Below are positions 2,406 through 64,000 of a stretch of 64,000 nt of DNA, piece after piece; the first letter of the stretch is position 1, and each line of letters begins with the position of its first letter. The DNA comes from Mobula hypostoma (Eukaryota): contig NC_086115.1 of NCBI RefSeq assembly GCF_963921235.1, positions 34,038,001 through 34,102,000 on the forward strand, in the 5' to 3' direction. The notes beneath the pieces were generated by a model. The model worked only from the letters and a program-made list of their open reading frames with translations, was not told the DNA's origin and made no database searches. The position numbers were made by a program, and so were the translations under genes.

Positions 2406-3961
2406 ATTAGATTATTAAATGATTTCCTAGTATAATAATATGGACTCTTGACCTCACAATCTACTTTATATGTCTTTGCACTTTATTGTTTGCCTGCACT
2501 GAACTTTTCCTAATAGAAACTTTATTTCTAGCAGTGAACATCAGCAGTAGCCTGTCTTGGTCTCACCACCTGCGCAAATAAAGACAGACAAGCAATTGAA
2601 TCCATTCAGTTCCTCACAGTTGAGTACAGTGATCATTAGGAAGTGACCTTGCAAGGTAGCCTCACCTGCTGGGTGTCCTGGACGCCTTCTCATCCTCGTC
2701 TTTCTCCTCAATGCAATTTTTAATAACTGAGCTCTCCCTTGGGAAGACCAATATCCAAGTTTCTATGCTGTCCTAAGTTGTTACTGTGCCTGAATGGGTA
2801 CTGGAAAGCCTCGTTGGCAAATCTGTGAGCTGAAAACATGGACAATAATGTGTGAAGAAACCCCTGAGGAAGACGATCCTTTGAGGCCTAAAGTGAGCAC
2901 TTCTGGCCCCCCGTGTTACCTAGCAGTCCCGATCTTCTGAAATGATCAAAGCATGTCCAGCTTAATGGCACGGGAATTTGTCCAATTGGAGATTTAGGCA
3001 TCAGACAACGAACTTTCGTACATTAAAAATAATATATAGCATTTTCCACAGGATCTCCCAATTGAGACAATTCTTTAGCTAAACTGGGGATTTTCTTCAG
3101 CTACTTCTTTTATGATATCTGAAAGTTTAGAAGTGCAACACAATATTAGCGCACAGGTTTTGTCCCATGGTATCATTCAACAGTTTACTGGTTGTTGCTC
3201 CCAGCTCTCTCAGAAATACTTGGTCTATCACTCATTATATTCCTTCCTGGGCTCGCTCTCCAAATGAGCATCAGATCATTGATCACACGCCCATTGGAAT
3301 CCAGAATTTCCCCTTGCATTTTCCATTTTCTTTCTTTCTGATTCCCCATTAGTCTTCCTTCAAACTCATTCTCTTCCAGCCCTGCAGCAAATTTCCATTG
3401 CAAAGCCTTCACAAGCTTATTTTCCTCTTTCATTCATTCCTTTCTCCTCAGTCAGCCTAGTCCTGATTTCGGAGATGCCTTATAGAAAAGATTCCATTTT
3501 GACTTCAAAGGTGAGCTCAATGTTGGAGACTCTCTGTTCCTGAATTTTCAAATGTTTTTTCCTCGACTCTCTGTGCCTCCTGCTTCTAAATGAATGCCTA
3601 CGATGTCTCTAAGTCACAGTCTCCACTGAGCAGAGCTAGTGAAAGCACGGACACAGGGAGGAGATAGTTACAGAGAGAGAGCAACAGTGGAGTAACAGAG
3701 GGTTAAAGTCTGAACTCTCCTGGATTGCGTGAGGCAGTGTTTGAGGAAGATATCAAATAATTTTGTGATCTTTGGTTCTTCAAAGTCTGTTGGAATATTA
3801 TTCTAAAATCCCTTCTTCACTCTCAATAGTGTGCAGGATTAATATGTAAAGGGATTAAAATGAGTGGTGCTTGAATTAACATGACCTGTTTTTAGACATA
3901 ATTGATTATCGTGACCAATTCAATTCTCAAGGAAAAAACAGGTTTGCCAGTATTAGCTTCC

Positions 3962-3974
3962 AGTTTCATTTTCC
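3962..3974 (+). promoter_or_regulatory. ISRE of IFIT gene A
   Basis: AGTTTCATTTTCC matches the ISRE consensus AGTTTCNNTTTCY exactly and lies ~50 bp upstream of the TATA box of an IFIT gene. Confidence 0.85.
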
Positions 3975-4023
3975 ATTCCACTCTTGGTTTGCAAATTTTA
4001 CAACTCAGCCCAACCCTACAGAT

Positions 4024-4030
4024 TATAAAA
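4024..4030 (+). promoter_or_regulatory. TATA box of IFIT gene A
   Basis: TATAAAA 86 bp upstream of the exon-1 ATG; the spacing in gene C is similar (83 bp). Confidence 0.75.
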
Positions 4031-4109
4031 GATACCAGAAATCCTCCCGTTGAACAGTCACGTAGCTTTACCAGTCCTCTGAAGTACGGCCAGAATCCCA
4101 AACAGCACC

Positions 4110-4114
4110 ATGAG
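4110..4114 (+). CDS. IFIT: IFIT gene A, coding exon 1 (ATGAG)
   Basis: cagcaccATGAG|gtgagt gives a good Kozak context and a consensus donor. The phase-2 join to 7331 reads M-S-D-T-L-K. A 5-nt first coding exon is the standard IFIT gene architecture. Confidence 0.85.
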
Positions 4115-9187: not shown

Positions 9188-9193
9188 AATAAA
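9188..9193 (+). terminator. Candidate polyadenylation signal of gene A
   Basis: AATAAA 408 nt after the stop. Alternatives are ATTAAA at 9501 and AATAAA at 9834. Confidence 0.5.
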
Positions 9194-13466: not shown

Positions 13467-15185
13467 TAAGACCATAAGACATAGGAGTAAAGTTAGGTCT
13501 GCCATACCCTAATTGCCTCTGGTTCATTACATAACACACTATCCAGTATAGCTGATCCCCTGGTAGGCTCAACAACAAACTGCTCCAAAAAGCAATCTCA
13601 TGGACATTCAACAAATTCACTCTCCTGAGCTCCATTACAAACCTGATTTTTCCAATCTACCTGCATGTTAAAGTCTCCCATGACTTTCGTACATTGCCCC
13701 TTTGTCATGCCTTTTTTATTTCCCACTCTATCGTCTATTCCACATCCCAGCTAACTGTTTAGAAGCCCGTATACAACTGCCATCAGGGTCCTCTGACACT
13801 TGCAGTTTCTTAACTCAACCCACAACATATCAACATCTTCTGATCCTATGTCAAATCTTTCTAATGATTTGATGCCATTCTTTACCAGCAGAGCCGTGCC
13901 ACCCCGTCTGCCTACCTTCCTATCCCTCCGATACAATGTGTAATTTTGGACGTTCAGCTCCCAACTACAACCATCCTTCAGCCACAATTCAGTGATGGGC
14001 ACAACATCATACCCAACAATCTGTAAAAGTGAAACAAGATCATCCACCTTACTTCTTATACCCCATGTATTAACATATAACACTTTGAATATTGTATTTG
14101 CTACCCCTTTTTGATTCTGTATCCTTAATGCACTGATACTCACCCTACTGCCTGCAATTATGTCCTATCATCTGCCTCCCCTTCCTGACAGTCTGACTGC
14201 ATGCTATCTTTGCTTTTTTCTTACTATCCACTCTATCCTGAGTCCCTTTATTCCTGTTCCTATCTCCTGCCAAATTAGTTTAAACTCACCCCAACAGCTC
14301 GAACAAACTTGCCCACAAGAATATTGGCCACCCTCAGGTTCAGGTGCAACCCATCCCTTTTGGATAGGTCATATCTGCTCCAAAAGAGGACCCAATGATC
14401 CAAGAACCTGAAGCCATGCCCTCTAAGCCAGCTTCTCAGCCATGCATTTATCTGCCATATCATCCTGTTTCTACCCTCACTGGTGCATGGCACAGGCAGC
14501 AGTCCAGAAATTACTACACTGGAGTTCCTGCTTCTCAACTTCCTGCCTAGCTCTCTAAATTCTCTTTTCAGGACCTCCTTGTTTTTCCTTCCTATGTCAT
14601 TGGTACCAACATGTACCAAAGCATTTGGCTGCTCTCCCTTCCCTTCCAAAATGCTGTGGATGCAAAGTGAGATGTCCCTGACCCTGGCACAAGGGAGGCA
14701 ACATACCATCCGGGTGTCCCATTCACATCCATGGAATCTCCTGTCTGTTCCTATGGCTATTGAGTCCCCTATCACTACAGCTCCCCTATTCTCCCTCTTT
14801 CCCTTTGGCCCCACCAACCCACGCTCAGTGTCAGTAGACTGGTCTCTGTGGCATTCCCCTGGGAGGTCATCCCCCACTTTAGTATCTAAAAAGGTATACT
14901 TATTATAAAGGGGAATGGCCACAGGGGTGCTCTGTGCTATCTACCTATTCACCTTCCCATTCCTTCTCATGACAGTCCTCCAGCTACCTGCCTCCTGCTA
15001 CTCAGGGATAACTACTCCCTGTAATTCTGATTGATGATCTCCTCACTCTCCCATACAAGCCGATGTCATCCAGCTGCTGTTTCATACCCCTAACACGGTC
15101 TTCACGGAGCTGCAGTTGGATGCAGTTCCCAGGGCTCCAACTCCCAGCATGAATAACACACTACAGCCATTTAAACTACACTAAG
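13467..15185 (-). mobile_element. CR1 LINE, internally deleted (ORF1 SGNH-esterase + start of ORF2 endonuclease joined directly to the 3' tail)
   Basis: ORF 14275-14922 has the GDS, HVGTND and DGLH esterase motifs. ORF 13751-14143 has the EN motifs (TELWL, RRDR..GGT). The CR1 3' tail (taagaccataagacatagg) at ~13467-13500 abuts the EN region, so the RT is missing. Confidence 0.85.
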
Positions 15186-15206: not shown

Positions 15207-16010
15207 ATGTTACCATTGGCCTTGAAGCTACCAGACTTCAATGAAAAGGAGGAAGCAAATGGGTTCGTCAAAGAACCACCACAGAAGGTCACTGATCTTC
15301 CATATGTGTTTCAGTATGCAGCAAAATTTTACAGACAAAAACAAGCTGTGGAGAAAGGTATCAAGCTGTTGAAGGAAGCTTTAGAAATAACTCCAAACTT
15401 CTTTCACAATGAAATGGCCATGTGTTACAATGATAAAAGAAGAAACATGCAGAGAACTCCATTCTGCAGGAACCATCACTGTCTTTTATCTGAATTGATC
15501 ATTCAATACAAGTATCACTTTGAAAAAACATATGAAAATAGTGTAAGTTCAGCAATTAAATCACAGCTGGACTTTGCAAACTTCTGTGAAGTAATTGGAG
15601 ACTCCTCCAAAGCAGACGAGATCTATACCAACTTGGTGAAGTTAAAGTATACTTGTCCAGAAAGTATGCAGAAAATATATTTATATGCTGGGTCGTTTGA
15701 ACTGCACCACAAAAAGTCTGAATCCGATGCTATTAATCTACTGCTGAAAGGCCTGAAGATTGATTATGATTCAAATGAACGCAAAATGTGTCAGAAGGAA
15801 TTGGAAAATTGGGCAGATGGGAAACTTTGCAGGTATCAACATGATGGTAAGGCCCTTGGTGTTAAAGCATTAGTGTATCAGCTGGATGGGAACAAGTCTA
15901 AAGCTATTGAATACTTTCAGAAAGCCTTGATGATTGATCCTTGCAATGAGGAATATTTGAGTGCACTTTGTGAATTATGCCTTTCCATCAAGAGTCAAAA
16001 TGATGATTGA
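15207..16010 (+). pseudogene. IFIT: IFIT copy B: 5'-truncated gene, C-terminal half still an open 267-aa ORF
   Basis: Aligns to genes A and C from the internal Met of AMVxLALKL to the C-terminus (DLPYVFQYAAKFYR, KYHFEK, QLDFA, DPCNEEYLSALCEL). The N-terminal ~220 codons are absent, with CR1 in their place. Confidence 0.85.
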
Positions 16011-17317
16011 AAGATGAACTGATTGTGTCAGGTTGGACTACAAGCATGTCGGGTGCATGTTTCACTTTTTAAATTCTTTCAGTCCCTTCCTTCATGGAGG
16101 CTTTACAGACAAATCAAAAATTTTTCAAGCAATAGTTTCAACATAATCATTATCGATCTTTGTGCTGAATTCCAAAATATTAACATTAATAATACACTTA
16201 ACATATCAGATTTGAATAGCTTTTAATTTCTGTTTAGCGTGGAAAAGCAATGAAAATGGGTTTGTGGGAATTAGAACAAATGGAGTCAAGTAGAAAATCT
16301 TTTCTGGCTTTTGTTATATGTCTCCTTTTCCTTCTGCAATTATCTCTGGTTATATTTTACTGTCCCTTGCATCACTTTTTGAAGAATAGTTTTTATAAAA
16401 TGATTGTATGTTCAAGGCCATTGTAAAATCTTCTCCAGAGGAATTAAGTCAAGGAAAGGAAAGGAAAATACCAAATCAAAGGAACAGTAACAGCAAATCC
16501 TTAACAGATGGTTCAACCTGCTGACTGTTAAAATAGAGAAATTTCAAATGATAATGTTTTTGCAAGGGAGAAAGTGAAGTTTTAATCTCAATTAGAATAG
16601 CTCACAGCCAAGGACAAATTTCTCCAGACCTGGAAACATCTAGACTCATAAGGAACCAGAAATTAGCGAAAAAGAAGGTGAGGTAAACGCCAAAACCTTG
16701 CTTGGAGTATGTTCAGCAACAATACTGAAGCAGCATTTTGCTTTTGTTCCATGACCCTGGGTGGATGTATGAGCTGTGGAAAGGGTGTGGATGCAGGGGT
16801 GGGGATGACAATGTCACGTTTACTGTATTTATACAATGCAATTTAGATAGACTTTTGTAATGAGGAACCAGGGCTTGTCAGAGTGTATACATCAAATATG
16901 TGACATTACTGTAATTGTCTGATACTAATTTGGTGCAAGCTTGTGAAGGTGTGCCAATTCTACAATTGGACAATGTAAATTGTTTGCATGCTGGAATTTG
17001 GTGAGGTTTTATCCCAGGGGCTTTGCAGAGCAGGAAAGAAAAATCAGGGAGCTCCAGAAAGGGTAAGCGTGGAGGTATTTATCTTGGGGATTGGGACTGC
17101 CAACCGTCAGCGATAAATAGAGAGAAAGGGTCAAGATGTAAATAAATCACACACAATGTAAGCCCGGTTTGATCTGAAAATGCTGAGGGCATGGATGGTG
17201 GGGTAATACTGTGGAGATTTTTGTCTCGGTCCCTTGTATTATGCACACAATCAGTTCATACCAAAAGGTTAAAAAACAAATCTACTTACTTGAAATAGTA
17301 TTGTCAGTTCACAGTCC

Positions 17318-23131: not shown

Positions 23132-23641
23132 AAAGGGGTGATTGATATATTCGTGGCCTAAGGTAGAAGTAGTCAATTTTAGAAAACCCAGCACATTTAT
23201 TTTTCAACATAGTCCCCTCCTACATTTACACACTTAGTCCAGCGGTCGTGGAGCATACGGATCCCTTCTTTGTAGAAGTCGGCATCTTGGACCTCCAGCA
23301 ATTGGTCCACAGCAGGGGTGATTGATAAGGTTGTGGCCTAAGATGGAAGGAGATGAGTTATACAGCTCTTGTTACATGAACGTGTAGTTCAACTCTTTGA
23401 GTGATTACGCAGACAGTTTGAAGTTAATAACTCAGCTCCGTCTACCTTAGGCCACAAACTTATCAATCACCCCTGCTGTCGACCACTTCTGGAGGTCCAA
23501 GACGCCGACTTCTACAAAGAAGGGATCCGTATGCTCCACGACCGCTGGACTAAGTGTGTAAATGTAGGAAAAATAAATGTGCTAGGTTTTCTAAAATTGA
23601 CTCCTCCTAACTTAGGCCACGAACATATCAATCACCCCTTG
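23132..23641. mobile_element. Palindromic mariner-derived MITE
   Basis: Inverted arms of ~215-230 bp around a ~65-bp spacer; TIR motif GGGGTGATTGATA..TTCGTGGCCTAAG; TA on the right flank. The arm encodes a mariner transposase C-terminus (DADFYKEGIRMLHDRWTKCVNVG). Confidence 0.85.
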
Positions 23642-23699: not shown

Positions 23700-25036
23700 T
23701 GGGTTCATTGTCCATTCAGAAATCTGATGCAGGTGGGGAAGAAGCTGTTCCTAAAATGTTGAATGTGTGTCCTCAGGCCCCTGTACCTCTTCGTTGATAA
23801 TAGGGTAATCAGGGCCCTTAACAATGGATGCCCCCTTTTTAAGGCATCGCCTTTTCTAAACGTCCTTAACGTTGGGGAGGCTTGTGCCCATGATTGGGGC
23901 TGTCTGAGCTTACAACTTTCTGCAGCTTTTCCGAATGTGACGCAGTGGCCCCTCCATACCTGACAGTGATACAACCAGTTCAAATGCTTTCCACTGTACA
24001 CCTCTAGAAGCTGGGGACATAGCAAATCTCCTCAAACTGCAAATGAGATATAGCCACCTCTGTGCCTTCTTTGTAATTGTATCAGTACGTTGGGCCCAGG
24101 ATAGACCTTCAGAGATGTTGACACCCAGGAACTTGCAACTGCTCACCCTCCCTATGATTGATTCCTCAATGAGGACTGATGTGTGTTCCCTCAAATTCCC
24201 TGTCCTGAAATCCACAACCAATTCTTTGGTGTTACTGGCATTGAGTGCATGGTTGTTGTTGTAGCACCACTCAACCAGCTGATCTATCTCACTCCTGTAT
24301 GCCTACTTGCCACCATCAAAACTCTGTCAACAATAGTTGTGTCATGGGCAAATTTATAGATGCCATTTGAGCTCTGCCTAGCTACATATTTGTGGGTGTA
24401 GGAAGAGTAGAGCAGTAGGCTAAACATGCATCTTTGAGATGCACCAGTGTCAGCGAGGTGGAGATGTTCTGTCTGCTCTGCACTGACTGTGGTCTCCCAA
24501 GAAGGAAGTCGAGGATCCAGTTGCAAAGGGAGGTATAGCGACCAAGGTTTTGTAGCTTGTTGATTAGTACTCAATTTATGATGGCGTTGAATGCTGAGCT
24601 GTAATCAATAAACAGCAGCCTGAAGTACATATTGCTATTGTCAAGGTGCCCCAAGGCCAAGTAGAGAGCCAGTGAGATTGCATCTGCTGTAGACTTATTG
24701 TTGCAAGGGGAAAATTGCAGTGGATCCAGGTCCTTCCTTAGGACGGAGCTGGTTATGGCCATGACCAACCTCTCAAAGCACTTCATCACAATAGACAGTG
24801 CAAATGGGCAAAAGTCAATGAAATCACTCATCCTGCTCTTCTTGGGCACTGTATGATTGTCACACTTTTGAAGCAGATAGGAACTTCTGACTGCAATAAT
24901 GAGAGTGTGAAAAAGTCGATGAGCACTCTTGCCATTTGGTTGGCACAGATTTTCAGTACTCTACCAGGTACACCATCATGCCTGATGCCTTGTGAGGTTT
25001 TACCCTCATAAGAAATGTCCTGATGTCGGCCTCCAT
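23700..25036 (-). mobile_element. Rex1/Babar-like LINE, 3' part (interrupted by CR1)
   Basis: [25 protein letters not shown] and KFLGVNI motifs. The frame continues at 28366. Confidence 0.85.
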
Positions 25037-28000
25037 AGAAACATAGAAACATAGAAAATAGGTGCAAGAGTAAGCCATTTGGCCCTTTGAGCCTGCACCG
25101 CCATTCAGTATGATCATGGCTGATCATCCAACTCAGAACCCTGTACCAGCCTTCCCTCCATACCCCCTGATCCCTTTAGCTACAAGGGCCATATCTAACA
25201 CCCTCTTAAATGTAGCCAATGAACTGGCCTCAACTGTTTCCTGTGGCAGAGAATTCCACAGACTCACCATTCTCTGTGTGAAGAAGATTTTCCTAATCTC
25301 GGTCCTAAAAGGCTTCCCCTTTATCCTCAAACTGTGACCCCTCATTATGGACTTCCCCAACATCGGGAACAATCTTCCTGCATCTAGCCTGTCCAATCCC
25401 TTTAGGATTTTATACGTTTCAATCAGATCCCCCCTCAATCTTCTAAATTCCAACGAGTATAAGCCTAGTTCATCCAGTCTTTCATCATATGAAAGTCCTG
25501 CCATCCCAGGAATCAATCTAGTGAACCTTCTTTGTACTCCCTCTATGGCAAGGATGTCTTTCCTCAGATTAGCTTACCAAAACCGCACACAATACTGCAG
25601 GTGTGGTCTCACCAAGGCCTTGTACAACTGCAGTAGTACCTCCCTGCTCCTGTACTCGAATCCTCTTGCTATAAATGCCAGCATACCATTCGCCTTTTTC
25701 ACCGCCTGCTGTACCTGCATGCCAACTTTCAATGACTGGTGTATAATGACACCCAGGTCTCATTGCACCTTCCCTTTTCCTAATCGGCCACCATTTATAT
25801 AATAATCTGTTCTCCTGTTTTTGCCACCAAAGTGGATAACTTCACATTTATCCACATTAAATTGCATCTGCCATGAATTTGCCAACTCACCTAACCTATC
25901 CAAGTCACCCTGCATCCTCTTAGCATCCTCCGCACAGCTAACACTGCCGCCCAGCTTCGTGTCATCCGCAAACTTGGAGATGCTGCATTTAATTCCCTCA
26001 TCCAAGTCATTAATATATATTGTAAACAACTGGGGTCCCAGCACTGAGCCTTGCGGTACCCCACTAGTCACTGCCTGCCATTCTGAAAAGGTCCCATTTA
26101 TTCCCACTCTTTGCTTCCTGTCTGCCAACCAATTTTCTATCCACATCAATACCTTACCCCCAATACCGTGTGCTTTAAGTTTGCACACTAATCTCCTGTG
26201 TGGGACCTTGTCAAAAGCCTTTTGAAAATCCAAATATATCACATCCACTGGTTCTCCCCTACTCTACTAGTTACATCCTCAAAAAATTCTATGAGATTCG
26301 TCACACATGATTTTCCTTTCTCAAATCCATGCTGACTTTGTCCGATCATTTCACCGCTTTCCAAATGCGCTGTTATCACATCTTTGATAACTGACTCTAG
26401 CAGTTTCCCCACCACCGATGTTAGGCTAACCGGTCTATTATTCCCCGGTTTCTCTCTCCCTCCTTTTTTAAAAAGTGGGGTTACATTAGCACCCTCCAAT
26501 CCTCAGGAATTAGTCCAGAATCTAAAGAGTTTTGAAAAAGTATCACCAATGCATCCACTACTTCTTGGGCTACTTCCTTAAGCACTCTGGGATGCAGACC
26601 ATCTGGCCCTGGGGATTTATCTGCCTTTAATCCCTTCAATTTACCTAACACCACTTCCCTACTAACATGTATTTCCCTTAGTTCCTCCACCTCACTGGAC
26701 CCTCTGTCCCCTACTATTTCTGGAAGATTATTTATGTCCTCCTTAGTGAAGACAGAACCAAAGTAATTATTCAATTGGTCTGCCATGTCCTTGCTCCCAA
26801 TAATCAATTCACCTGTTTCTGTCTGTAGGGGACCTACATTTGTCTTTACCAGTCTTTTCCTTTTTACATATCTATAAAAGCTTTTACAGTCAGTTTTTAT
26901 GTTCCTTGCCAGTTTTCTCTCATAATCTTTTTTCCCCTTTCTAATTAAGCCCTTTGTCCTCCTCTGCTGAACTCTGAATTTCTCACAGTCCTCAGGTGAG
27001 CCACTTTTTCTGGCTAATTTGTATGCTTCTTCTTTGGAATTGATATTATCTCTAATTTCTCTTGTCAGCCATGGGTGCACTACCTTCCTTGATTTATTCT
27101 TTTGCCAAACTGGGATGAACAATTGTTGTAGTTCATCCATGCAACCTTTAAATGCTTGCCATTGCATATCCACCGTCAACCCTTTAAGAGTCATTTGCCA
27201 GTCTATCTCAGCTAATTCACGTCTCATACCTTCAAAGTTACCCTTCTTTAAGTTCAGAACCTTTGTTTCTGAATTAACTATATCACTCTCCATCTTAATG
27301 AAGAATTCCACCATATTATGGTCACTCTTACCCAAGGGGCCTCTCACGACAAGATTGCTAATTAACCCTTCCTCATTGCTCAATACCCAGTCTAGAATAG
27401 CCTGCTCTCTAGTCGGTTCCTCGACATGTTGGTTCAAAAAACCATCCCGCATACATTCCAAGAAATCCTCTTCCTCAGCACCCTTACCAATTTGGTTCAC
27501 CCAATCTACATGTAGATTGAAGTTACCCATTATAACTGCTGTTCCTTTATTGCACACATTTCTAATTTCCTGTTTAATACCATCCCCAACCTCACTACTA
27601 CTGTTAGGTGGCCTGTACACAACTCCCACCAGCGTTTTCTGCCCCTTAGTGTTATGCAGCTCTTCCTATATCGATTCCACATCCTCCCGGCTTATGTCCT
27701 TCCTTTCTATTGTGTTAATCTCCTCTCTAACCAGCAACGCCACCCCACCTCCTTTTCTTTCATGTCTATCCCTCCTGAATATTGAATATCCCTGAATGTT
27801 GAGCTCCCATCCTTGGTCACCCTGGAGCCATGTCTCTGTGATCCCAACTATATCATATTCATTAATAACAATCTGCACTTTTAATTCATCCACCTTGTTA
27901 CGAATGCTCCTTGCATTGACACACAAAGCCTTCAGGCGCGCTTTTACGACTCTCTTAGCCCTTATACAATTATGTTGAAAAGTGGCCCTTTTTAATGCTT

Positions 28001-28360
28001 GCCCTGGATTTGTCAGCCTGCCACTTTTACTTTTCACCTTACTACTTTTTGCTTCTACCCTCATTTTACACTCCTCTGTCTCTCTGCACTGGTTCCCATC
28101 CCCCTGTTGTGGACTAAGCTCCTCTCGCCTTGGCTCTTTAATTTGATTCCCACCCCCCCAACCATTCTAGTTTAATGTCACCTCAGTAGCCCTCACTAAT
28201 CTCCCTGCCAGGATATTGGTCCCCCTAGGATTCAAGTGTAACCCGTCCTTTTTGTACAGCTCACGCCTGCACCAAAAGAGGTCCCAATGATCCAAAAACT
28301 TGAATCCCTGCCCCCTGCTCCAATCCCTCAGCCACACATTTATCCTCCACCTCATTGCAT
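25037..28360 (-). mobile_element. Young CR1 LINE (end of ORF1 + near-complete ORF2 with a few lesions)
   Basis: EN (GITETW, SDH), RT (GVPQGSVLGP, FADD) and an (ATAGAAAC)n tail. Flanked by TCCAT at 25032-25036 and 28361-28365. Confidence 0.93.
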
Positions 28361-39505: not shown

Positions 39506-39577
39506 AGCTTTGCTTTCTTCATCCACTTTGAGACAAATATTTTGATAGATTTTAGCTCCACCCGGACACTATATAAA
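39506..39577 (+). promoter_or_regulatory. Gene C promoter: degenerate ISRE (AGCTTTGCTTTCT, 39506-39518) and TATATAAA (39570-39577)
   Basis: Positionally homologous to the ISRE and TATA box of gene A. Confidence 0.65.
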
Positions 39578-39652
39578 CAACTAGAACAACACTTTGCAGA
39601 GTTACTCAGCTAACCAGCCATCTGAGGTGCAGCTGGAATTCTGCACAGCATC

Positions 39653-39657
39653 ATGAG
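39653..39657 (+). CDS. IFIT: IFIT gene C, coding exon 1 (ATGAG)
   Basis: cagcatcATGAG|gtgagt. The phase-2 join to 42002 reads M-S-N-T-P-G-D-V-L-K. The intron start is homologous to that of gene A. Confidence 0.87.
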
Positions 39658-41274: not shown

Positions 41275-41475
41275 GACTGCATGGGTTTCCTCCGGGTGTT
41301 CGACTCTCCTCCTACATTCCAAAGATGTATGGGTTAGGGTGGGTGTGCATGTTGGTGCCGGAAACATGGTGACACACTTGTCGGCTACCCTTTTTCATCT
41401 GATATAATGTCAAACGAGGTATTTCACTGTATATTTTCATGTACATGTGATAAAAAAAGCTAATCATCAATCTTA
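41275..41475 (+). mobile_element. V-SINE-type fragment in the gene C intron
   Basis: GGGTTTCCTCCGGGTG..CTCCTCCTACATTCCAAAGA core. An orthologous insertion is present in the paralogous intron at ~60775. Confidence 0.6.
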
Positions 41476-42001
41476 AATTCTTTAAAAGTAGGATGTGGTT
41501 CAGCTCTGCCATATACTACATCTATGTAGATTTGAGCACATTGGAGCTTATGGGGTGTATTGAGTACTTAGTTAATAAACCAGAGGAACATGCTACTCTA
41601 AACTGTCATAACTTCCAGCCCCTAGTGGCTTTCAGGACAGGATGGAGGAACTGCATCCATGGTGCGGCAAATTCATCTCCTTTGGGAGAAACCAAGTGCA
41701 ACATCAGTGTAGTGAAACAACAGATCAGCTGCCTAGGCTGTTCAGGAGACACATTTCTATCTTCATCACATGAATCAATTCTTCATATAGGGTTATTGAT
41801 CTGAAACATTGATAGATTCTCCTTCCTCAGATGCAGACTGACAGGCTGAGCATTTCCAGGCTTTCAATGTCATAATTTTAAAAAAAACTTTAAAAGGCAG
41901 CTTTCATACAGTTAGTAAATCAGCTCTTTATGGGATTACAGGGCAGATCTGTATCAAGTGATCTGAGATGGAATTCATGATTATGTTTTTCTCTCTTGCA
42001 G

Positions 42002-43436
42002 CAACACACCGGGAGATGTATTGAAAGAGAAGCTCGATCAACTGCAGTGTCACTTCACATGGAGACCACAGAAGGAAACTATTGACTTGGAAGATCTGAT
42101 GCACAGATTGCAAGATTCTATCGATATGAATATGAAGTATAAAGATCAGGCCTACAACCAATTTGCTTTTTTAAATTGTTTGCAGGGCAAATGTGTGGAA
42201 GCAATTCAAAATTTAAAGGAAGCTGAAAAAATTCTGAGGGAGAACCACAAAGATGAATTTGAAAGAAGAAGCATCATCATCTATGGAAACTTTGCCTGGG
42301 TACATTACCACATGGGACAGCTGACCGAGTCCCAGTCCTACCTCGAAAAGCTGGAGATGATCTGTAAACCGCTCAGTGACGGCCCTCGCTATACAGCAAA
42401 GATCCCTGAGGTGTACGGGGAGAAGGGATGGTCATTGTTGAATTCTGCTTCTGAATTCTATGAGGAGGCAAAGGAATGCTTTGCAAAGGCTCTGGAGCAA
42501 GACCCTGACAACACCGAGTGGATAATGGGATATGCGACTGCACTGTCTCGTCTGGAATCAATGTCTGGAACCCCAGAGAGTCGTGATCAGAGTCAGTCAG
42601 TGAAGTATTTCCGACGAGTACTGGAGCTTGATCCAGATGATGCTGTGGCCATGGTGCTGTTGGCTCTAAAACTGCTGAGGTTACAACAAAATGAGGAAGC
42701 ACGTAAATTCGTTGAACAAGCATTGCAGAAGACCCCAGATCTTCCATATGTGCTTCGCTATGCTGCAAAATATTATAGACAAGTAGGATCTGTGGAGAAA
42801 GCAATCGAGCTGTTGAAAAAAGCATTAGAGTTAACTCCACACTCTGGTTTCTTATACCACCAACTTGGATTGTGCTACAGAAAGAAGCTGAAATACACTC
42901 GTAGCAGATACGCTCGCAATCCTGAATTTCAGCAGAGAGCTGAGTTGATCAATCTATGCAAGTATCACTTTGAAAAGGCTTTTGAGCACCGTCCAAGGTC
43001 ATTTATTAGAGCACAACTGGACTTTGCAGACATCTGCATAACAAGTGGGGAGTATTACAGAGCAGAGGAGATCTACAGTAGATTGAAGGAGTTAGTGGAC
43101 ATTCGACCAGAAAACATGCAGAGCATATGTCTGGAAGCTGGGTTATTTGAACTAAACCAGAAGAATTCTGAAACAAATGCTGTTCGCCTCTTCCTGAAAG
43201 GAGTGAAAATTGAATATAACTCAATAGAACGGGAAAAATGTCGCATGAATTTGGAGGAGTGGACAGATAGAAAACTTAGTGTAAATGCACAAGACAGCGA
43301 GGCTCTTGGTGTCAGAGCATTTCTGTATCAGCTGGATGGGAACCAGGGTAGAGCAGCTGAGTACTTTGAGATGGCCTTGGAGTTTGATCCTGACAATGAG
43401 GAATATGTGAGTGCTCTTTCTCGGTTACGTATCTGA
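42002..43436 (+). CDS. IFIT: IFIT gene C, exon 2: IFIT1/IFIT5-like TPR protein (479 aa spliced)
   Basis: Acceptor ttttctctcttgcag|C. Motifs CHFTW, YGNFAWVHYHM, PYVLRYAAKYYR, GFLYHQLGLCY and DPDNEEY. Uninterrupted ORF. Confidence 0.96.
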
Positions 43437-43829: not shown

Positions 43830-44659
43830 TGTGACGAAAAATCAAGTTATCAGAAGATTGATGCTAATGAAAGAGGTAAGTGAGACAATGGAGAAACATT
43901 CAAAATGTTAATGAGAGAGGAGAGAGAGATAACGGAAAGAGACACCAGTCCGAGTATTGACAGACCGATTGTATGAACCTGAACTGTTTGAAGTTTGATG
44001 GACGAGTGACACCCCAGCAGGGGGATAAAAAGAACAGGTTCGCTAAGGCAAAACACACCACGAGATCACGAGATAACGAGACCCTGGAAGAGCGGTGTGC
44101 CCCCACAAGTTGGTATGATTTGGAGGTCTGGACGCGGGAACCGACCATAGACGCACAGGGTGAAAAGGTACAATTGGCAGGAACCTGGTGTGTGTGTCCA
44201 CCCTCGCCTGGGTGCTGGGTTCACCGCGGAAGAACGGTCGTATCCGGAACGGAGGGGTCACATCGGTGACCACAGAAGACATTAAAAGGCTTCGCCCGAA
44301 AGCTAACTGCGAAGAACACCAAGGTCTGCCTGAATCAGATTTGCATATCATCCTCTCTCTCTCTCTCCCCAATGGCACAACAGTGATTACTGCGAACTGT
44401 CCTAAGCTGAACTGAACTTTGCATCACATGAGACTGATCATTTTACCCCTAGACTGCGATAGAGCTTGTTTGATTCCTATTACCCTAGTTCTGTGTACAT
44501 GTGTGTTTTATCATTGCTAATCTGTTGCATTCATATCTTTACGATTAGAGTACTGTGTTACTTATTTCTTTAATAAAACTTTCTTAGTTCCAGTAATCCA
44601 GACAAAACTAAGTGGTCCATTTCTGCTGGTTTGGCAACCCAGTTATGGGGTACGTAACA
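43830..44659 (+). mobile_element. Solo LTR (830 bp) downstream of the gene C stop
   Basis: TGTGACG...CGTAACA termini; 4-bp TSD TTGT (43826-43829, 44660-44663); TATA-like GATAAAA at ~44024; AATAAA at 44572. Confidence 0.9.
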
Positions 44660-45329
44660 TTGTATCTTAAGGATAATGGTAAAATGTCCTTTTTAGATAT
44701 GTCTGATAATTAAAGCTTCAGAGCAAAAGTTGGTCTTGTGTTGACACAATCAAAGGAACGCAAACAACAAATCCTTAACAGCATGATTCCAACCTGCTGA
44801 GTGTGGTGGAGGAGTGTCCTGGAAGGGGAATGACTGGCAAGTTGCGGTAGAGCGGTTTTGTCAATTATTCATGGATTTCAAAAAGGTAATATTTTTAACA
44901 AAAAAAAAGGATTAGAGTTTTCATTCATAATAGCTAACAGCCAAGGACAATGTATCTGCAACACAGCAAACAAGACTGTGTGAGCCAATGGACTCATAAT
45001 GGAAAAAGAAGATGGAAGGTTATAGTGCAAGGATCATGCCTTTGACTTGACCAATGGTGTTGGTAAAGTGATAGCCAAAAGACATTCCTGTGATGTGCAA
45101 GGGATTGGCTGCTGATAATGAGATAACCGCATAATTAGACAATGGAAATCAGATATGGTTATACGCTAAGTGAGCTGTTGTCCCCATAAAATTTTCAGAG
45201 TTGAGAAGAATGAGAAGGGAGATGCAGAAAAGAGAAAGCCATATGAGAACCAGCTCGGGAACAATCATCTGAAATTTCAAAGAGAGAAGGTGTCATCGCC
45301 GATTAACTGGACACTTGTTCCTCAATCAC

Positions 45330-50669: not shown

Positions 50670-51685
50670 GAGTGCCAGAAGGGAGATGAGTGGGGAGGGA
50701 CGAATAGACAAGGGAGTAGAGTAGGAAGTGATCCCTTTGGAATGAGGAAGGTGGGTGGAGGGAAATATGTGCCAGGTTGTGGGATCACATTGGAGGTGGT
50801 GAATCTCTAGTAGGCTAGCGAGATGATGGGGTAAGAGCAGACCTCGCAAACAAATCTCTGGATCCAGACATTTCTGCATCAGCACACACCATAGTCCCTG
50901 GTCCTCAAAGGCAACAAAATTCAGCTGCACAGTGCCATTATGCATGCATGCAGTGGAATTATTTGAGGACAAATATGATTTATTCCAGGTTAAATCAATT
51001 TTATTTCATAACCTTGTAAAATATGGTGCTATGCAATGGAATTTCCAGACATATGAACGATAGAGGCAAGCCATTTTTTTTTCAGAACTGCTGTTTGTCA
51101 CACATTAACTACTGTGACAGGGTCCTGAATTAACCCTATGAACTGTGCTTTTGAAAAGAGAGAGCGAGAGAGGTGCTCAACAACAGACACCTTGTTAAAA
51201 GAAGAAAGAGAGGGTTATTTAACATCGACATCTTGTTTTTAAGAGAGAGAGAGATGAAGACTGCTTTGAGATGGTGTTATGATTTTTCTGCAGCATGTTT
51301 ACATTTCTACAAGGACATGGGCTGCTTGTACATTCTTACACAGAGAGAGAAGGGAGGAGCTGATTTGAGAGACAGTTGGTATTCAGCACGGGGAGATATA
51401 CAGAAGGTCAGATGATAGACCTGCACCATATGATTTTGGACACTGAATGAGCTATGTTGTGCCCACAGAAAAAGTGGATTTTTGAAGGATCGATCAGTGG
51501 CTCACGCAGTGTGGACAGGGTGTGACCAGTGGGGAGTTATGTGTATAGCCAACCCTCAAATCTCTCCCTCTCTCTCTCTCACCATTACTACTCAACTCAA
51601 TACCACGAACTGAACTGAACTTTACTCATCATCGTAAGACTATCTATTTACCCTTAGACTTGAAGAAACTTGGTTTTCATATATT

Positions 51686-52064
51686 CTTTCTCTCACTCTC
51701 TTTTTTCTCCCTCTGTCCCTCTGACTATACCCCTTGCCCATCCTCTGGTTCCCCCCCCACCTTGTCTTTCTTCCCGGACCTCCTGTCCCATGATCCTCTC
51801 GTATCCCCTTTGCCAATCAACTGTCCAGCTCTTGGCTCCATTCCTCCCCCTCCTGTCTTCTCCTATCATTTTGGATCTCCCCCTCCCCCTCTCACTTTCA
51901 AATCTCTTACTAACTCTTCCTTCAGTTAGTCCTGACGAAGGGTCTCGGCCTGAAACGTCGACTGTACCTCTTCCTAGAGATGCTGCCTGGCCTGCTGCGT
52001 TCACCAGCAAATTTGATGTGTGTTGCTTGAATTTCCAGCATCTGCAGAATTCCTGTTGTTTGCC
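51686..52064 (+). mobile_element. Young Penelope-like 3' tail insertion
   Basis: Flanked by the 12-bp direct repeat TTTTCATATATT (51674-51685, 52065-52076); highly similar to 48770-49108. Confidence 0.85.
51927..51964 (+). ncRNA. Minimal type I hammerhead ribozyme motif (Penelope-type)
   Basis: UAGUC-CUGACGA-AGG(GUCUCGG)CCU-GAAAC-GUC^GACUG: both catalytic boxes are intact. Helix I is UAGUC/GACUG, helix II is AGG/CCU, and helix III is the palindrome ACGU. Confidence 0.75.
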
Positions 52065-52868
52065 TTTTCATATATTTCCACACTTACTGATACACTTACT
52101 TATATATAATCATTGCTAACCTGTTTGATTTATCTGCATTTATATTACTGTATTGAGTAGTTACTAATCAATATCATTAGTTAGTAGCAATACCGGACTC
52201 CAAAGTGTTTTCCATCTCTGCTGTTTTTTTGGGTTTTTTTTGCTATAACTGTATTTGGTGCTCAGTGTTGGTATTGTGCATTCATAGGCACATCAGTAAA
52301 GACAGATCAGGATGCTTGTGTCAAAAGTAAAGCAGACTTATTATTTCAGGCCAATAAGCTTTCATTGCAAGAAATTATCTCCCATTTAAACAGATTACAG
52401 CCCAGTCACTTGTTTCAACAACACCAGACAGATAAACATATCCAGTACTTTCTGTTGTTATTTAGACGTCTAGTATCTGCAACACTTTCTGTACCATTTT
52501 GGATGCTTAGCAGTACCAAGGCTGGTGAGAGTAAGACGTCAGAGAATGTCAGTGTCACCACAGACAAAAATAGGCCTTTGGCCCATCATTGAGTTGCTGC
52601 CACGTGATTGACTGATCGGATATTTGCATTAACGAGCAGGTGTACAGGTGTACATAATAAAGTGTACAACTTGATGTATATGTAATAATGCAAATATGAA
52701 ATAAAAGTAACTCCCATTTGGGGTCGCTAGATGGACAACTTGAAATTTATTCATGTGTTGTTTAAAGTTAGGAGGACACAATAACTCTCGGCTTTGTTAC
52801 AAGTAATGATGTGAAGAAAAATGATCATGTATGAAGTGATGAATTTCATGAATTTTCTTCACTAACAG

Positions 52869-53290
52869 CAACACACAAAGAGATTTGTTGAAAGAGAAGC
52901 TCGATCAGCTTCAATGTCACTTCACGTGGGACCCTCAGAAGGGAAACGTTGACTTGGAAGATATGACATACAGACTGTGAGATGCTATAAAAATCTGGGT
53001 GTGAAATATCAAACCATGTTTCACAATCAACTCGCTTTCATAAATGTCTGCAGGGAAACAATAAAGAAGCCATTCAGAACTTAATTGAAACCCTTGTCAC
53101 CCTGCATTTCGCCAGAAAGCAAAGTTGTTTAATCAATACAAGCATCATTTTGGAAAGGCATTTGAGCACCGTCCAATATCAGCTATTAAACCACAACTGG
53201 ATTCTGCAGTTGTAAGTGAAAGAAATGGAGAGTATTCCAAAGTGAAGGAGATCTACAGTAATCTTTTGAAATTAGATGATATTCATCCAA
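52869..53290 (+). pseudogene. IFIT: IFIT copy D pseudogene (stop, frameshifts, ~690-nt internal deletion, 3' truncation)
   Basis: Acceptor ctaacag|C, then NTQRDLLKEKLDQLQCHFTWDPQKGNVDLEDMTYRL* with an in-frame TGA at 52978. It jumps from AIQNL to QYKHHFGKAFEHRP..QLDSA and ends at DIHP. Confidence 0.92.
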
Positions 53291-57254: not shown

Positions 57255-57607
57255 GTTGCTAGCACAGATAACTGGATCAGTTAAATGTAATGTGATCTGT
57301 TCCCAGTCTTTCAGACACCTGGAGAAGGCAACTGTGAGCATTCAGCATACGGATTTTGGACCTGATCTCAGGTTTGTGATTTGATTATAATTTGAAACAA
57401 ATCCTGTGGTGCTACGGCATTTTAGAATAGGGAGCTGACTGGGAGTGAGGAAAGCGAGAATTGCATGAAGGAGTGTGTCCTCCGAACAGATGACATGATT
57501 TCTGAGTTCTCCAGTGGGGAACTGACTTTTCCCAGTTGGTTGCATTCAGTGAACAGTGACTGATATAATAAAATTTACGGCTGTCGCTGAGGGGTATAGT
57601 GAGCTGA
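57255..57607 (+). repeat. Paralogous copy of the gene C intron 5' region (39710-40165)
   Basis: Colinear similarity, e.g. GATGACATGATTT..AGTT..CAGTGGGGAACTGACTTTTCCCAGT..TTGCATTCAGTGAAC. Confidence 0.9.
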
Positions 57608-57609
57608 TC

Positions 57610-58500
57610 TGATAAGACCATAAGACCATAAAACAATGGAACAGAATTAGGCCATTTGACCCATCGAGTCTGCTCTGCCATTCAACTATGGGCGGTTCTT
57701 TTTTCCCCTCCTCAGCCCCACTCCCCGGCCTTCCTCCCGTAACCTTTGATGCTATGGCCAGTCAAGAACCAATCAATCTCTGCTTCATATACACCCAACG
57801 ACCTGGTCTCCATAATTGCCTGTGGTAACAAATTCCACAAACTCACCACCCTCTGGCCAAAGAATTTTCTCCGAATCTCTGTTTTAAATGAATTGCCCTC
57901 TATCCTGAGGCTGTGCACTCTTGTCCTAGTCCTCCCACCATGAAAAACATCCTTTCCACATCTACTCTGTCCAGGCCTTTCAGCATTCTGAAGTTTTCAA
58001 TGAGATACCACCCAATCCTTCTAAATTCCAGTGAGTACAGGCCGTAAGCTATCTACTGTTCCTCATATGGTAACCCTTTCATTCCCAGAATTATCCTTGT
58101 AAACCTCCTCTGAACCCTCTCCAATGCCAGCACATCTTATCTTAGACAAGGAGACAAAACTGTTCACAATAGTCAAGGTGAGGCCTCACCCGTGCCTTAT
58201 AAAGCCTCAGCTTCACATCCCTGCTCTAGATCTAGATCTCATGAAATGGATGCTAACAATGCATTTGCCTTCCTTAGCAACAACTCAACCTGCACGTTCA
58301 CCTTCAGGGAATTCTGCACAAGGGCTCCCAAGTCCCTTTGCATCCCAGATTTTTTTGACTTTCTCCGCATTTGGAAAATATTCTGCACTTCTATTTCTTC
58401 TACCAATGTGCATGACCTTGTATTTTCCAACATTGTATTTCATTTGCCACTTTCTTGCCCATTCTCCTAATCTGTCCAAGTCCTGCAACATTCCTGTTTT
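57610..58500 (-). mobile_element. CR1 3' fragment
   Basis: (TAAGACCA)n tail; LQDLDRLGEWARKWQM. Confidence 0.85.
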
Positions 58501-60100: not shown

Positions 60101-60212
60101 TATAAAGGGTTGTCAAGTCGAACATCAGATGCAGCAACGTAAACGCAGCAGAAGAAGAAACGCACAAACTGAGAAAGACACAAATTGCTTTCCATCCAAC
60201 TAACATCATGAG
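60101..60212 (+). other. Candidate TATA box + exon 1 of a fifth IFIT copy (E); ATGAG at 60208-60212
   Basis: TATAAAG at 60101 and aacatcATGAG|gtaaag, followed by sequence paralogous to the gene C intron. Exon 2 is not in the window. Confidence 0.55.
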
Positions 60213-60769
60213 GTAAAGAACTTTTCCTTGCAATTAATCTTTATGTGCAGATTATTATAGAGGAGGTGGTTTATGGAAAATAGTGGATCATAGTGCACTA
60301 ACTTTGAAATACCCAGAGTGAAGACACACTGGCTAACACTGTAGTTGACTAACAAGACTGTAGGGTAATCCGTACATTACTCTGCTGGGGTGTAAACAGT
60401 GCAGGGAACTGCAGTGGTTTACTATTATTTTTTGTTATTAACATCCAATAAAAAGGCTGTAACCACAAGATTTGCATCTGATTCCTGACTTCTGAAGAAC
60501 CTTCTGTATTGTATGATAGCCAGATCCAACAGCAAGTTCAAGGGATCATGAATAATCCTTGTTCATGACAGGAGAGGAAAGAGGAGTAGGAGAGTAGGAG
60601 TCTGATCAAGTCAGCTTATCTGCACTTGTCTTCTTCAAACAGGGATCTTTACCTCAAACAGGTACGACTGCGAACAATGACAGTCAGAGAAAAACTGAGC
60701 AGTCAGAGCAATCGCTTTACCACGGATCGATTTCGACAGTAATTTGGAAAGACTGTGTTCATTCTCTCT

Positions 60770-61172
60770 GTGACTGTGTGGGTTTCCAAAGATGTATGGG
60801 TTAGGGTTAGTGAGCACGTTGGTGCCAGAAACATGCTGACACACTTGCCGGTCGCTCTGCACAATCGTTTTTGATCTGATATGATGCCAAACTATGCATT
60901 TCACTGTATGTTTTGATGTACATGTGACAAGGAGAGCTAATCTTTAATCTCCAATATCTTTAAAAGTATGAGATGACAGCTACAGCTATGCTGGACAGTA
61001 TAGCCATGTAGATTTGACCACACTGGAGCTTATGGGGTGTATTCAGAACTGAGTTAATACACCAGAGGAACATGCTACTCTAAACTGTCATAATTTCCAG
61101 CCACTAGTGGCTTTCAGGACAGGATGGAGAAATTGCATCCATGGTGCAGCAAATTCATCTCCTTTGGGAGAA
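60770..61172 (+). repeat. Paralogous copy of the gene C intron 3' region (41310-41692)
   Basis: Near-identical blocks such as CCAGAGGAACATGCTACTCTAAACTGTCATAA and GCAAATTCATCTCCTTTGGGAGAAA. Confidence 0.92.
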
Positions 61173-61399
61173 AACAACAGGCAGAGTTGATCTTAGAGTA
61201 GGTTTAAAGGTCGGCACATCATGATGGGCTGAAGGGCTGTAAGGTGCTGTGAAGATCTATGTTCTATGCTGGTCTGTGTTCTTTCAGAAATGTACAGCAG
61301 GATCAGGGGATGTTGCTCATGTAATTGCACTGTGAACTGGTCTGATAACTCGTAACTTGCCAGACTTCAGTGGACTTCACAAAACAGCTTTATCTTACT

Positions 61400-62200
61400 G
61401 ATGTTATTGATGTTCTCGGTCTTAAAGACATTGTGTCTGACTATTGGTGGCTGTCAGGGGAAAAGCACCACTTCTCTGCCCCTAGATCTGGAGCTATTCT
61501 CAGGCTTCTGGCAAAAAAATTTTATTTTAGATCACTAAAATCCAGTTTCCGAACAAAATCACTTTCAAGTGACATCAGAGTAAGATGACTCAGCCTGTCC
61601 TGTCCCATTGTGGATCTGAGCCTATGTAGTTGCCATTATCAGGCCTGCCAAATATGTCACTGGAGCCTAGGATAGCCAGTCCCCTCTCAACCAAAAACTT
61701 CACAATCACCAACACTCTTCTCGATACATCGGTCCAGTAGACACACTCTGACTCGAACTGTTTTTGCAGTTCTGTATCTATTCTTCTGCTGTCAGACGCC
61801 AGCATAATGTAGGTCAGTATCATTTTCCTGCGGTGTTCACTATTTTCATGCTCTCCTGTGCACTCAGCGGCATGTTTCCAGTCGCTAAAGCCAGTTTTGA
61901 AGATGGACAGACAGTTACCATCACTGAAGATGCTGCATGCAAAACAAAACACACAGCCGGTGGAAGGGGAATCTAAGAGCCATTGCTTTGATATGTACTC
62001 ACCATTTACGAGCTTGAGTTTGAAGTGAAATTTGGAGGAAAATATGTCTCTGCTGTTTGTATACTCGTTCCAAAGCTTTGATATCCACATTCTTATTCTG
62101 GCAGGACTCCGGCCCTTTCTTAGCCCAGTACGCTCGGACTGAATCATCTAATGTTTCCTTTCCCCAGCGAGCAGAATCAGTGCTGTAAGGATCCTCAGTA
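61400..62200 (-). mobile_element. hAT transposon, internally deleted (TTF-type Zn finger/DUF4371 fused to dimerisation domain)
   Basis: WLLDS..VFCFAC..GFSDWKH..HENS..H and FLVERGLA..NGNY, then in another frame RSTMGQDRLSHLTLMSLE. Confidence 0.85.
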
Positions 62201-62209
62201 GTGGTAACG

Positions 62210-63933
62210 TTAAGGGAAAAGTTTTATGAGAGAAAACTGGCAGGGAAGATAAAACCTGACTGTAAAAGCTTTTATAGATATGTGAAAAGAAAAAGATTGG
62301 TTAAGACAAATGTAGGTCCCCTACAGACAGAAACAGGAAAATTGATTATGGGGAACAAGGACATGGCAGACCAATTGAATATCTACTTTGGTTCTGCCTT
62401 CACTAAGGAGGATATAAATAATCTTCCGGAAATAGTAGGGGACAGAGGGTCTAGTGAGATGGAGGAACTGAGGGAAATACATGTTAGTAGGGAAGTGGTG
62501 TTAGGTGAATTGAAGGGAATAAAGGCAGATAAATCCCCAGGGCCAGATAGTCTGCATCCCAGAGTGCTTAAGGAAGTAGCCCAAGAAATAGTGGATGCAT
62601 TAGTGATAATTTTTCAAAACTCTTTAGATTCTGGACTAATTCCTGAGGATTGGTGGGTGGCTAATGTAACCCTGCTTTTTGAAAATGCAGGGAGAGAGAA
62701 ACTGGAGAATTATAGACCAGTTAGCCTAACATCGGTGGTGGGGAAAATGCTAGAGACAGTTATCAAAGATGTGATAACAGCACACTTGGAAAGCGGTGAA
62801 ATCATCGGACAAAGTCAGCATGGATTTGTGAAAGGAAAATCATGTCTGACGAATCTCATAGAATTTTTTGAGGATGTAACTAGTAGAGTGGATAGGGCAG
62901 AACCTGTGGATGTGGTATATTTGGATTTCAAAAGGCTTTTGTCAAGGTCCCACACAGGAGATTAATGTGCAAACTTAAAGCACACGGTATTGGGGGTAAG
63001 GTATGGATGTGGATAGAGAATTGGTTGGCAGACAGGAAGCAAAGAGTGGGAATAAACGGGGCCATTTCAGAATGGCAGGCAGTGACTAGTGGGGTACCGC
63101 AAGGCTCAGTGGTGGGACCCCAGTTGTTTACAATATATATTAATGACTTAGATGAGGGAATTAAATGCAACATCTCCAAGTTTGCGGATGACACGAAGCT
63201 GGGCGGCAGTGTTAGCTGTGAGGAGGATGCTAAGAGGATGCAGGGTCACTTGGATAGGTTAGGTGAGTGGGCAAATTCATGGCAGATGCAATTTAATGTG
63301 GATAAATGTGAAGTTATCCACTTTGGTGGCAAAAACAGGAAAACAGATTATTATCTGAATGGTGGCCGATTAGAAAAAGGGGAGGTGCAGCGAGACCTGG
63401 GTGTCATCATACACCAGTCATTGAAAGTAGGCATGCAGGTACAGAAGGCGGTGAAAAAGGCGAATGGTATGCTGGCATTTATAGCAAGAGGATTCGAGTA
63501 CAGGAGCAGGAAGGTACTACTGCAGTTGTACAAGGCCTTGGTGAGACCACACCTGGAGTATTGTGTGCAGTTTTGGTCCCCTAATCTGAAGAAAGACATT
63601 CTTACCATAAAGGGAGTACAAAGAAGGTTCACCAGATTGATTCCTGGGATGGCAGGCCTTTCATATGATGAAAGACTGGATCGACTAGGCTTATACTTCT
63701 TGGAATTTAGAAGATTGAGGGGGGATCTTATGGAAACGTATAAAATCCTAAAGGAATTGGACAGGCTAGATGCAGGAAGATTGTTCCCGATGTTGGGGAA
63801 GTCCAGAACGAGGGGTCACAGTTTGAGGATAAAGGGGAAGCCTTTTAGGACCGAGATTAGGAGAAACTTCTTCACACAGAGAGTGGTGAATCTTTGGAAT
63901 TCTCTGCCACAGGAAACAGTTGAGGCCAGTTCG
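62210..63933 (+). mobile_element. Young CR1 ORF2 fragment (same subfamily as 25037-28360)
   Basis: Near-identical protein to the 25-28 kb copy, with one frameshift at ~62930. Confidence 0.93.
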
Positions 63934-63934
63934 T

Positions 63935-64000
63935 TTCAAAGTTGCTGGTGAACGCAGCAGGCCAGGCAGCATCTCTAGGAAGAGGTACAATCGACGTTTC
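63935..64000 (-). mobile_element. Penelope tail inserted in CR1, cut by the window edge
   Basis: Reverse complement of 51952-52015, beginning GAAACGTCGA (the 3' half of the hammerhead). Confidence 0.8.

What the first reader, a model, noticed from the sequence alone, without database searches (positions are those of the whole stretch)
3900..64000. Tandem IFIT antiviral cluster in active birth-and-death, with all stages visible in 60 kb
Seen: five same-strand IFIT units, namely A (intact), B (N-half lost), C (intact), D (pseudogene) and E (exon 1 + intron only). Non-coding flanks are duplicated with them: the intron blocks, and 16470-16620 matching 44745-44950. Established: IFITs are two-exon interferon-stimulated genes that expand lineage-specifically. 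Inference: this is a chondrichthyan-specific expansion, not orthologous to individual mammalian IFITs. The 5-nt first exons are invisible to the ORF track, so its start codons for A and C are wrong.
Basis: partly seen in the sequence, partly recalled or inferred. Interest (0 to 1): 0.7.

Follow-up and report, generated by a model that had tools for sequence, protein, structure and literature searches.

The report
Devil-ray IFIT antiviral gene array
This window is an eighth of a 525-kb tandem array of IFIT-family genes in a devil ray, with 18 open and about 13 broken copies; the intact ones likely act as interferon-induced antiviral proteins, the array likely grows by ordinary duplication and loss, and some copies likely borrow a neighbour's tiny first exon and promoter.

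Summary
The five units exist at the stated places, but they are 64 kb of a 525-kb array with 31 coding-exon loci, 18 of them open. All copies fall in a ray-and-skate clade apart from mammalian IFIT1/2/3/5, so birth-and-death and non-orthology hold. The units are not stages of one series. A, B, C and the parent of D are four old lineages, each with its own sawfish orthologue. B is a recently halved orthologue of an intact stingray gene. D is one of six copies sharing a 700-bp deletion, amplified after death beside live C-type genes. E is an orphan first exon with TATA box and donor intact. The array has two first-exon families. C carries the family otherwise used by A-type genes, and a copy 10 kb beyond the window likely uses a dead neighbour's first exon. 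A spliced contig shows the five-base first exon for one paralogue; the two window junctions are not shown by reads.

The parts
3962..3974 (+). ISRE-like element of gene A promoter
   Evidence: aligned at the same place in the other A-type promoters
4024..4031 (+). TATA box of gene A
4110..4114 (+). Coding part of gene A first exon (type I family), GT donor at 4115
   Evidence: joined frame equals P0120
7331..8780 (+). Gene A coding exon, intact IFIT, 484 aa when joined
13518..15115 (-). Interspersed repeat with an SGNH-esterase frame (LINE ORF1-like; family name CR1/L2 is recalled) abutting the break of B
15207..16010 (+). Unit B: C-terminal half of an IFIT, frame still open, no first exon or N-half; orthologue of intact stingray P0331 (91%) and sawfish P0072
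16403..16684 (+). 3' flank of B, weakly homologous to 3' flank of C (44659-45020)
39506..39657 (+). Gene C promoter and first exon, type I family: degenerate ISRE at 39506, TATA at 39570, ATGAG at 39653-39657, GT donor
42002..43436 (+). Gene C coding exon, intact IFIT, 479 aa when joined; its first 160 nt are identical to paralogue C3 (likely gene conversion)
   Evidence: three contigs of runs guessed to be RNA match its 3' part without a difference
50969..52534 (+). Remnants of D's promoter region; the first exon itself is deleted
52869..53290 (+). Unit D: dead copy of the gene at C64:34269273, with a 700-bp internal deletion shared by five more copies
57260..57613 (+). Remnant of a type I first intron without its exon; likely marks the left end of the duplicated module
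60101..61519 (+). Unit E: type II promoter (TATA 60101), ATGAG at 60208-60212 with GT donor, 5' part of intron; own coding exon lost
62189..64000 (+). Young LINE with reverse transcriptase frame downstream of E; 94% identical to an inverted copy at 25218-26925

Best explanation
The window is part of one 525-kb tandem array of IFIT genes in a devil ray, with 18 open and about 13 broken coding exons, which likely evolves by unequal crossing-over, deletion and short gene conversion, and whose intact members, including A and C, likely encode interferon-system proteins that bind viral RNA 5' ends. Shown: several paralogue lineages (A, B, C, S1, S2-5, Z) each have a sawfish orthologue; the A and C lineages then multiplied. 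Inferred: the C lineage multiplied as a two-gene module (C-type gene plus S1-type gene); the S1 copy in the module lost 700 bp once and was carried along dead six times (unit D). Inferred: because every first exon codes only ATG plus two bases in the same phase, a deletion or crossover in an intron can join any promoter to any downstream body, which likely gave gene C a type I promoter and gave the copy at C64:34112286 the promoter of a dead neighbour. B likely died recently by losing its 5' half; E is an orphan promoter that may be dead or may serve the next coding exon.
For: IFIT identity: E 8.5e-105 to IFIT1 and 2.4e-99 to IFIT5 structures. One locus: 43 of 43 matches on C64 within 33.876-34.400 Mb. 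Tree of 43 proteins: batoid clade 100/98, mammalian clade 100/99 (same picture with 143 proteins). Pairwise dN/dS below 1 over whole genes in 34 of 34 pairs: A 0.33-0.49, C 0.37-0.85, S 0.19-0.46. Six D copies share one deletion junction, 700 bp against S1 as measured on D3, and module flanks repeat collinearly at 80-93%. First-exon profiles find 10 type I and 19 type II copies. Of 6 module copies of the S1-type first exon, 1 keeps GT, and it lies before the one C-type exon that lost its own first exon; joining them gives exactly the annotated protein P0008. A contig of run X3 joins a type II first exon to the coding exon of paralogue C3. Long identical tracts in 4 of 34 pairs at p<=0.0005.
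Against: Gene C's ISRE is degenerate, and E has no match to the ISRE patterns scanned, so interferon induction of C is doubtful. The public automatic model of C (P0002) uses a different N-terminus, not the 39653 exon. K151, described as needed for RNA binding in human IFIT1 (PMC13197388, one passage), is Ser in A and Asn in C, so the binding mode may differ or be weak. The promoter-capture junction rests on an automatic gene model whose support I could not see; the 5 dead donors may come from a single mutation, so 1 of 6 is weak evidence for selection. Whether C gained a type I promoter or kept an ancestral one cannot be polarised without relatives' DNA.
Confidence: 0.82

Rival explanations
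1. The five window units are successive stages of one recent duplication series.
For: All five are on one strand, and intron and flank blocks are shared.
Against: A and C are 60% identical with dS about 0.7; A, B, C and D's parent each group with a different sawfish protein at 98-100 bootstrap; D copies share one deletion.
Confidence: 0.04
2. One promoter and first exon serve many alternative coding exons, an inverse of the protocadherin or UGT1A design (names recalled).
For: Public models label different paralogues as 'isoforms'; 13 coding exons downstream of C lacked a first exon like C's in the first search; two type II exons lie in tandem before C3.
Against: Profile searches find a separate first exon before 17 of the 17 other open coding exons, one of them with a dead donor; only the exon at C64:34112286 lacks its own.
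Confidence: 0.06
3. B and the D copies are functional truncated IFITs (a C-terminal-half regulator and short N-terminal peptides) kept by selection.
For: B's 267 codons are open, with 7 own changes against 10 in the intact stingray orthologue, and lineage dN/dS about 0.4 like intact genes. D3, D4 and D5 keep an open N-terminal frame. D-like fragments appear inside stingray gene models (P0003-P0005).
Against: B has no first exon, and no half-length relative was found among 741 candidates; a recent break explains the open frame. D1, D2 and D6 are frameshifted, and the first exons of D3-D6 have dead donors.
Confidence: 0.08
4. Part of the array is assembly duplication of haplotypes.
For: One pair (C64:34301223 and 34314680) is about 98% identical, flanks included.
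Against: Other open copies are at most 91% identical as proteins; several have separate orthologues in a second Mobula species; run contigs match C and C3 letter for letter as two sequences.
Confidence: 0.03

Closest known systems
Vertebrate IFIT family (human IFIT1/IFIT5 structures 5W5H, 3ZGQ; survey in PMC3688568)
   Same: All-TPR protein of about 480 aa; first exon with ATG plus two bases; ISRE near a TATA box in A; tandem same-strand cluster; lineage-specific expansion; elephant shark already known to have 8 genes.
   Different: 18 open copies against 1-11 per species in the rows of that paper's table that I saw; not orthologous to any single mammalian IFIT; K151 non-basic in 13 of 18; two non-alignable first-exon families.
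Mammalian IFIT1/IFIT1B birth, loss and gene conversion (PMC4887208)
   Same: Repeated gain, loss and conversion between neighbouring paralogues.
   Different: Conversion tracts here are short (about 30-160 nt) and scattered, not a recurrent 5' two-thirds block; turnover involves a two-gene module with a dead passenger and first-exon exchange.
Automatic RefSeq/UniRef models of ray IFIT1-like and IFIT5-like proteins (Mobula, Hypanus, Hemitrygon, Pristis)
   Same: The proteins are already in databases; P0120 equals gene A, P0002 contains gene C.
   Different: Names carry no orthology; the model of C has another N- and C-terminus; several stingray models fuse a D-like fragment to the next gene.

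Membership tests
IFIT family | Full-length homology to solved IFIT proteins, all-TPR architecture | tested here: met
   residues 6-467 align to IFIT1 at E 8.5e-105; the next non-IFIT natural hit is at E 3.5e-11
IFIT family | Two exons, the first coding ATG plus two bases (PMC3688568) | tested here: met
   A and C join in frame; spliced contig for paralogue C3. The window junctions themselves are not shown by reads.
IFIT family | ISRE within about 200 bp of the TATA box | tested here: inconclusive
   Present in A (3962, TATA 4024); degenerate in C; not matched in E. Some zebrafish and mammalian IFITs also lack it (PMC3688568).
IFIT family | Induction by interferon or poly(I:C) | not testable with these tools
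   No run on record as RNA or as stimulated
IFIT family | RNA 5'-end pocket residues R38, K151, R187, R255, W147 (PMC13197388) | tested here: inconclusive
   R38, W147, R187 and R255 kept in A and C; K151 replaced by Ser or Asn
IFIT family | Conserved neighbourhood (SLC16A12 downstream; LIPA upstream is recalled) | tested here: inconclusive
   An MFS transporter exon lies 31 kb beyond the last copy and two lipase-family exons 0.65-0.73 Mb upstream; the gene names are inferred, not tested
Orthologue of mammalian IFIT1, 2, 3 or 5 | Groups with one mammalian paralogue | tested here: not met
   AU test for C with IFIT1 rejected; the same test for A was not run
Birth-and-death multigene family | Lineage-specific paralogue clades, pseudogenes, purifying selection on intact copies | tested here: met
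Birth-and-death multigene family | Positive selection at sites (often, not always, present) | not tested
   Only pairwise NG86; C-halves of some C-type pairs reach 0.95-1.03
Shared-exon variable cluster | One exon spliced to many alternative exons | tested here: not met
   A first exon of its own before all but one open coding exon

The most novel reading that the evidence does not exclude
The five-base, same-phase first exon makes IFIT promoters plug-compatible, and rays use this to shuffle promoters among bodies: live genes capture first exons of dead neighbours, selection keeps exactly those donors, and orphan exons such as E act as second promoters. Together with a hypervariable K151 position, this gives rays a large IFIT repertoire with varied regulation and RNA-end specificities unlike those of mammals.
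Probability: 0.3. Interest if true: 0.62.

Novelty: new member of a known kind. Interest (0 to 1): 0.4.

Why it matters
It gives a worked map of an antiviral gene array larger than those tabulated for the family (18 open copies against 1-11), in a lineage for which my searches found no study. It corrects how such arrays are read: dead copies can be passengers rather than separate deaths, and orphan first exons need not be dead. It offers two testable leads: promoter capture across a dead exon, and natural replacement of a residue held essential for RNA binding in human IFIT1.

Tried and rejected
RNA: no RNA holder listed; three runs of one study, guessed to be RNA and kept as contigs, were laid. 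No contig covered C's first exon or joined 39657 to 42002 at 98% likeness; this is no evidence either way. In one search repeats filled the tables, with most rows cut. Shared first exon for many bodies: considered, rejected. An ATGAG at 57203 as E's exon: rejected, no GT donor and no profile match. ATGAG|GT sites 90 nt before three S-type exons: not favoured, no TATA or ISRE, and one disagrees with model P0067. Prolines and small deletions in B as signs of decay: rejected, the intact stingray orthologue has them too. Half-length relatives of B: none among 741 candidates. The 185-aa frame at 61593-62147 had no Pfam or NCBIfam match. NCBIfam gave only generic TPR matches, one above its cut-off. 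No structure or complex was predicted. The scan's earlier findings gave nothing by place and two unrelated notes by words.

Full report
1. Observation. The five units are present as described. A and C each have ATGAG followed by GT, an AG acceptor, and an open coding exon; joined they give 484 and 479 aa. Pfam finds only TPR-type families, and C aligns over residues 6-467 to the IFIT1 structure at E 8.5e-105. B is an open C-terminal half, D a deleted and frameshifted fragment, E a first exon with part of an intron. The duplicated non-coding blocks are real; the 16470/44745 match scores 96 against at most 46 in 200 shuffles.

2. The whole locus. The window is G000:C64:34038001-34102000. All 43 matches to C lie on C64 between 33.876 and 34.400 Mb (77 of 77 candidates scored). 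I read 200 kb upstream and 400 kb downstream. There are 31 coding-exon loci and one small inverted fragment. Eighteen are open for 450 aa or more; one of these has a dead first-exon donor. Proteins identical to these genes are named Mobula hypostoma by their sources. An MFS transporter exon follows the array and lipase-family exons precede it, which fits the known neighbourhood; the gene names are my inference.

3. Phylogeny. A FastTree tree of 143 proteins used 100 of the 120 listed hits; the 20 left out were same-species models, two unnamed hits and a few partial models. An IQ-TREE tree used 43 proteins, 14 of the 19 local ones. Both place all local copies in a batoid-only clade (100/98) and four mammalian IFITs in their own clade (100/99). 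Joining the C lineage to primate IFIT1 costs 262 log-likelihood units (p-AU 3e-83). Within rays, A, B, C, S1, S2-5 and Z each group with a separate sawfish protein. The C clade holds one sawfish protein and more than 30 stingray and devil-ray proteins. Catshark copies form separate expansions.

4. What the broken units are. B is 91% identical to a full-length Hypanus protein and has 7 own changes against 10 in that protein, so it is a recent loss of an old single-copy gene (inference). A LINE-like repeat abuts the break. D derives from gene S1 (88-90% over the 5' part). Six D copies share one deletion junction, 700 bp on D3, and five share a second 3' junction. Flanks repeat collinearly in the order type II first exon, C-type exon, S1-type first exon, D. 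I infer one death followed by amplification of a two-gene module. E's intron homology ends at 61519, and the intron before the next C-type exon is a paralogous copy (81%), so E's own exon is lost.

5. First exons. Profiles find 10 type I and 19 type II first exons at E<=1e-35; three weak matches were ignored. Type II subtypes align with each other (z mostly 5-19), but mostly not with type I (z about 2 or less, with two weak exceptions at 4-6). Type I serves A-type genes, Z and C; the six other C-type genes use type II. Of six module copies of the S1-type first exon, five have dead donors; the live one precedes dead D2 and the one C-type exon without a first exon of its own. Joining them gives exactly the annotated P0008. 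This is the best case for promoter capture, but it rests on an automatic model. A has an ISRE and TATA box; C has a TATA box and a degenerate ISRE; E has a TATA box and donor.

6. Expression. Three runs of one study, guessed to be RNA, hold contigs that match C's 3' exon and UTR without a difference (324, 385 and 614 nt); paralogues are at most 91% alike there. One contig carries the four alleles of paralogue C3 and continues into its type II first exon, which shows the five-base exon design in use for that paralogue. The window junctions remain unshown.

7. Selection and function. Whole-gene dN/dS is below 1 in 34 of 34 within-group pairs, and highest among C-type genes. Identical tracts exceed chance at p<0.01 in 8 of 34 pairs, 4 at p<=0.0005, including the first 160 nt of C and C3; this permutation test ignores relatedness. 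R38, W147, R187 and R255 are kept in A and C, while K151 is non-basic in 13 of 18 open copies and varies across sharks and rays. An antiviral RNA-binding role follows from the family and is not tested.

8. Literature. I saw passages only, no whole texts and no supplements: PMC3688568 (gene structure, ISRE, counts, lineage-specific expansion, 8 genes in elephant shark), PMC4065003 (zebrafish set, synteny), PMC4887208 (birth, loss, conversion), PMC12543323 (R187, rapid evolution) and PMC13197388 (pocket residues). The supplement of PMC4887208 lists 51 vertebrates and may include a cartilaginous fish. Searches for IFIT with elasmobranch and expansion and with stingray gave 0 papers; the listings showed no title on ray IFITs or IFIT first-exon exchange. 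The library lacks most subscription journals.

9. Verdict. A real, large IFIT array evolving by a known process. The first-exon exchange and the variable K151 are the parts worth a follow-up. New member of a known kind, interest 0.4.

Noticed in passing
window 23133-23640: A 508-bp element made of nested inverted repeats (arms 73 nt at 93%, 81 nt at 99%), inserted between two opposed repeat copies; MITE-like.
   Followed up: partly
window 25034-28195; G000:C64:34132171-34134786 and 34195807-34198964: Young LINE copies about 95% identical lie inside the array and could seed unequal crossing-over.
   Followed up: no
window 61593-62147, minus strand: A 185-aa frame right after the end of E's intron homology; it looks like a DNA-transposon fragment from memory, but has no Pfam or NCBIfam match.
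   Followed up: partly
G000:C64:33903212-33908931: A 5.7-kb insertion splits one A-type copy near residue 220, close to where B breaks; a short stretch in it reads like a retrotransposon integrase motif (recalled).
   Followed up: no
G000:C64:34022541-34027429: An A-type copy has a fully open coding exon but its first-exon donor reads GA: a possible very recent death.
   Followed up: partly
G000:C64:34137440 and 34139305: Two type II first exons with live donors lie 1.9 kb apart before one coding exon; the upstream one is 91% like E.
   Followed up: partly
G000:C64:34345688-34351712: The only inverted IFIT copy, with ISRE-like element and TATA box, shortened to 453 aa.
   Followed up: partly
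G000:C64:34367959-34371105: A 3.1-kb inverted repeat at 90% identity between the inverted copy and the last gene.
   Followed up: no
P0062-P0119: Catsharks show their own IFIT expansions, with 9-10 listed proteins per species, outside the ray clade.
   Followed up: partly
P0003, P0004, P0005: Stingray gene models contain a D-like N-terminal fragment fused before a C-type gene, hinting that the dead-passenger module is older than devil rays.
   Followed up: partly
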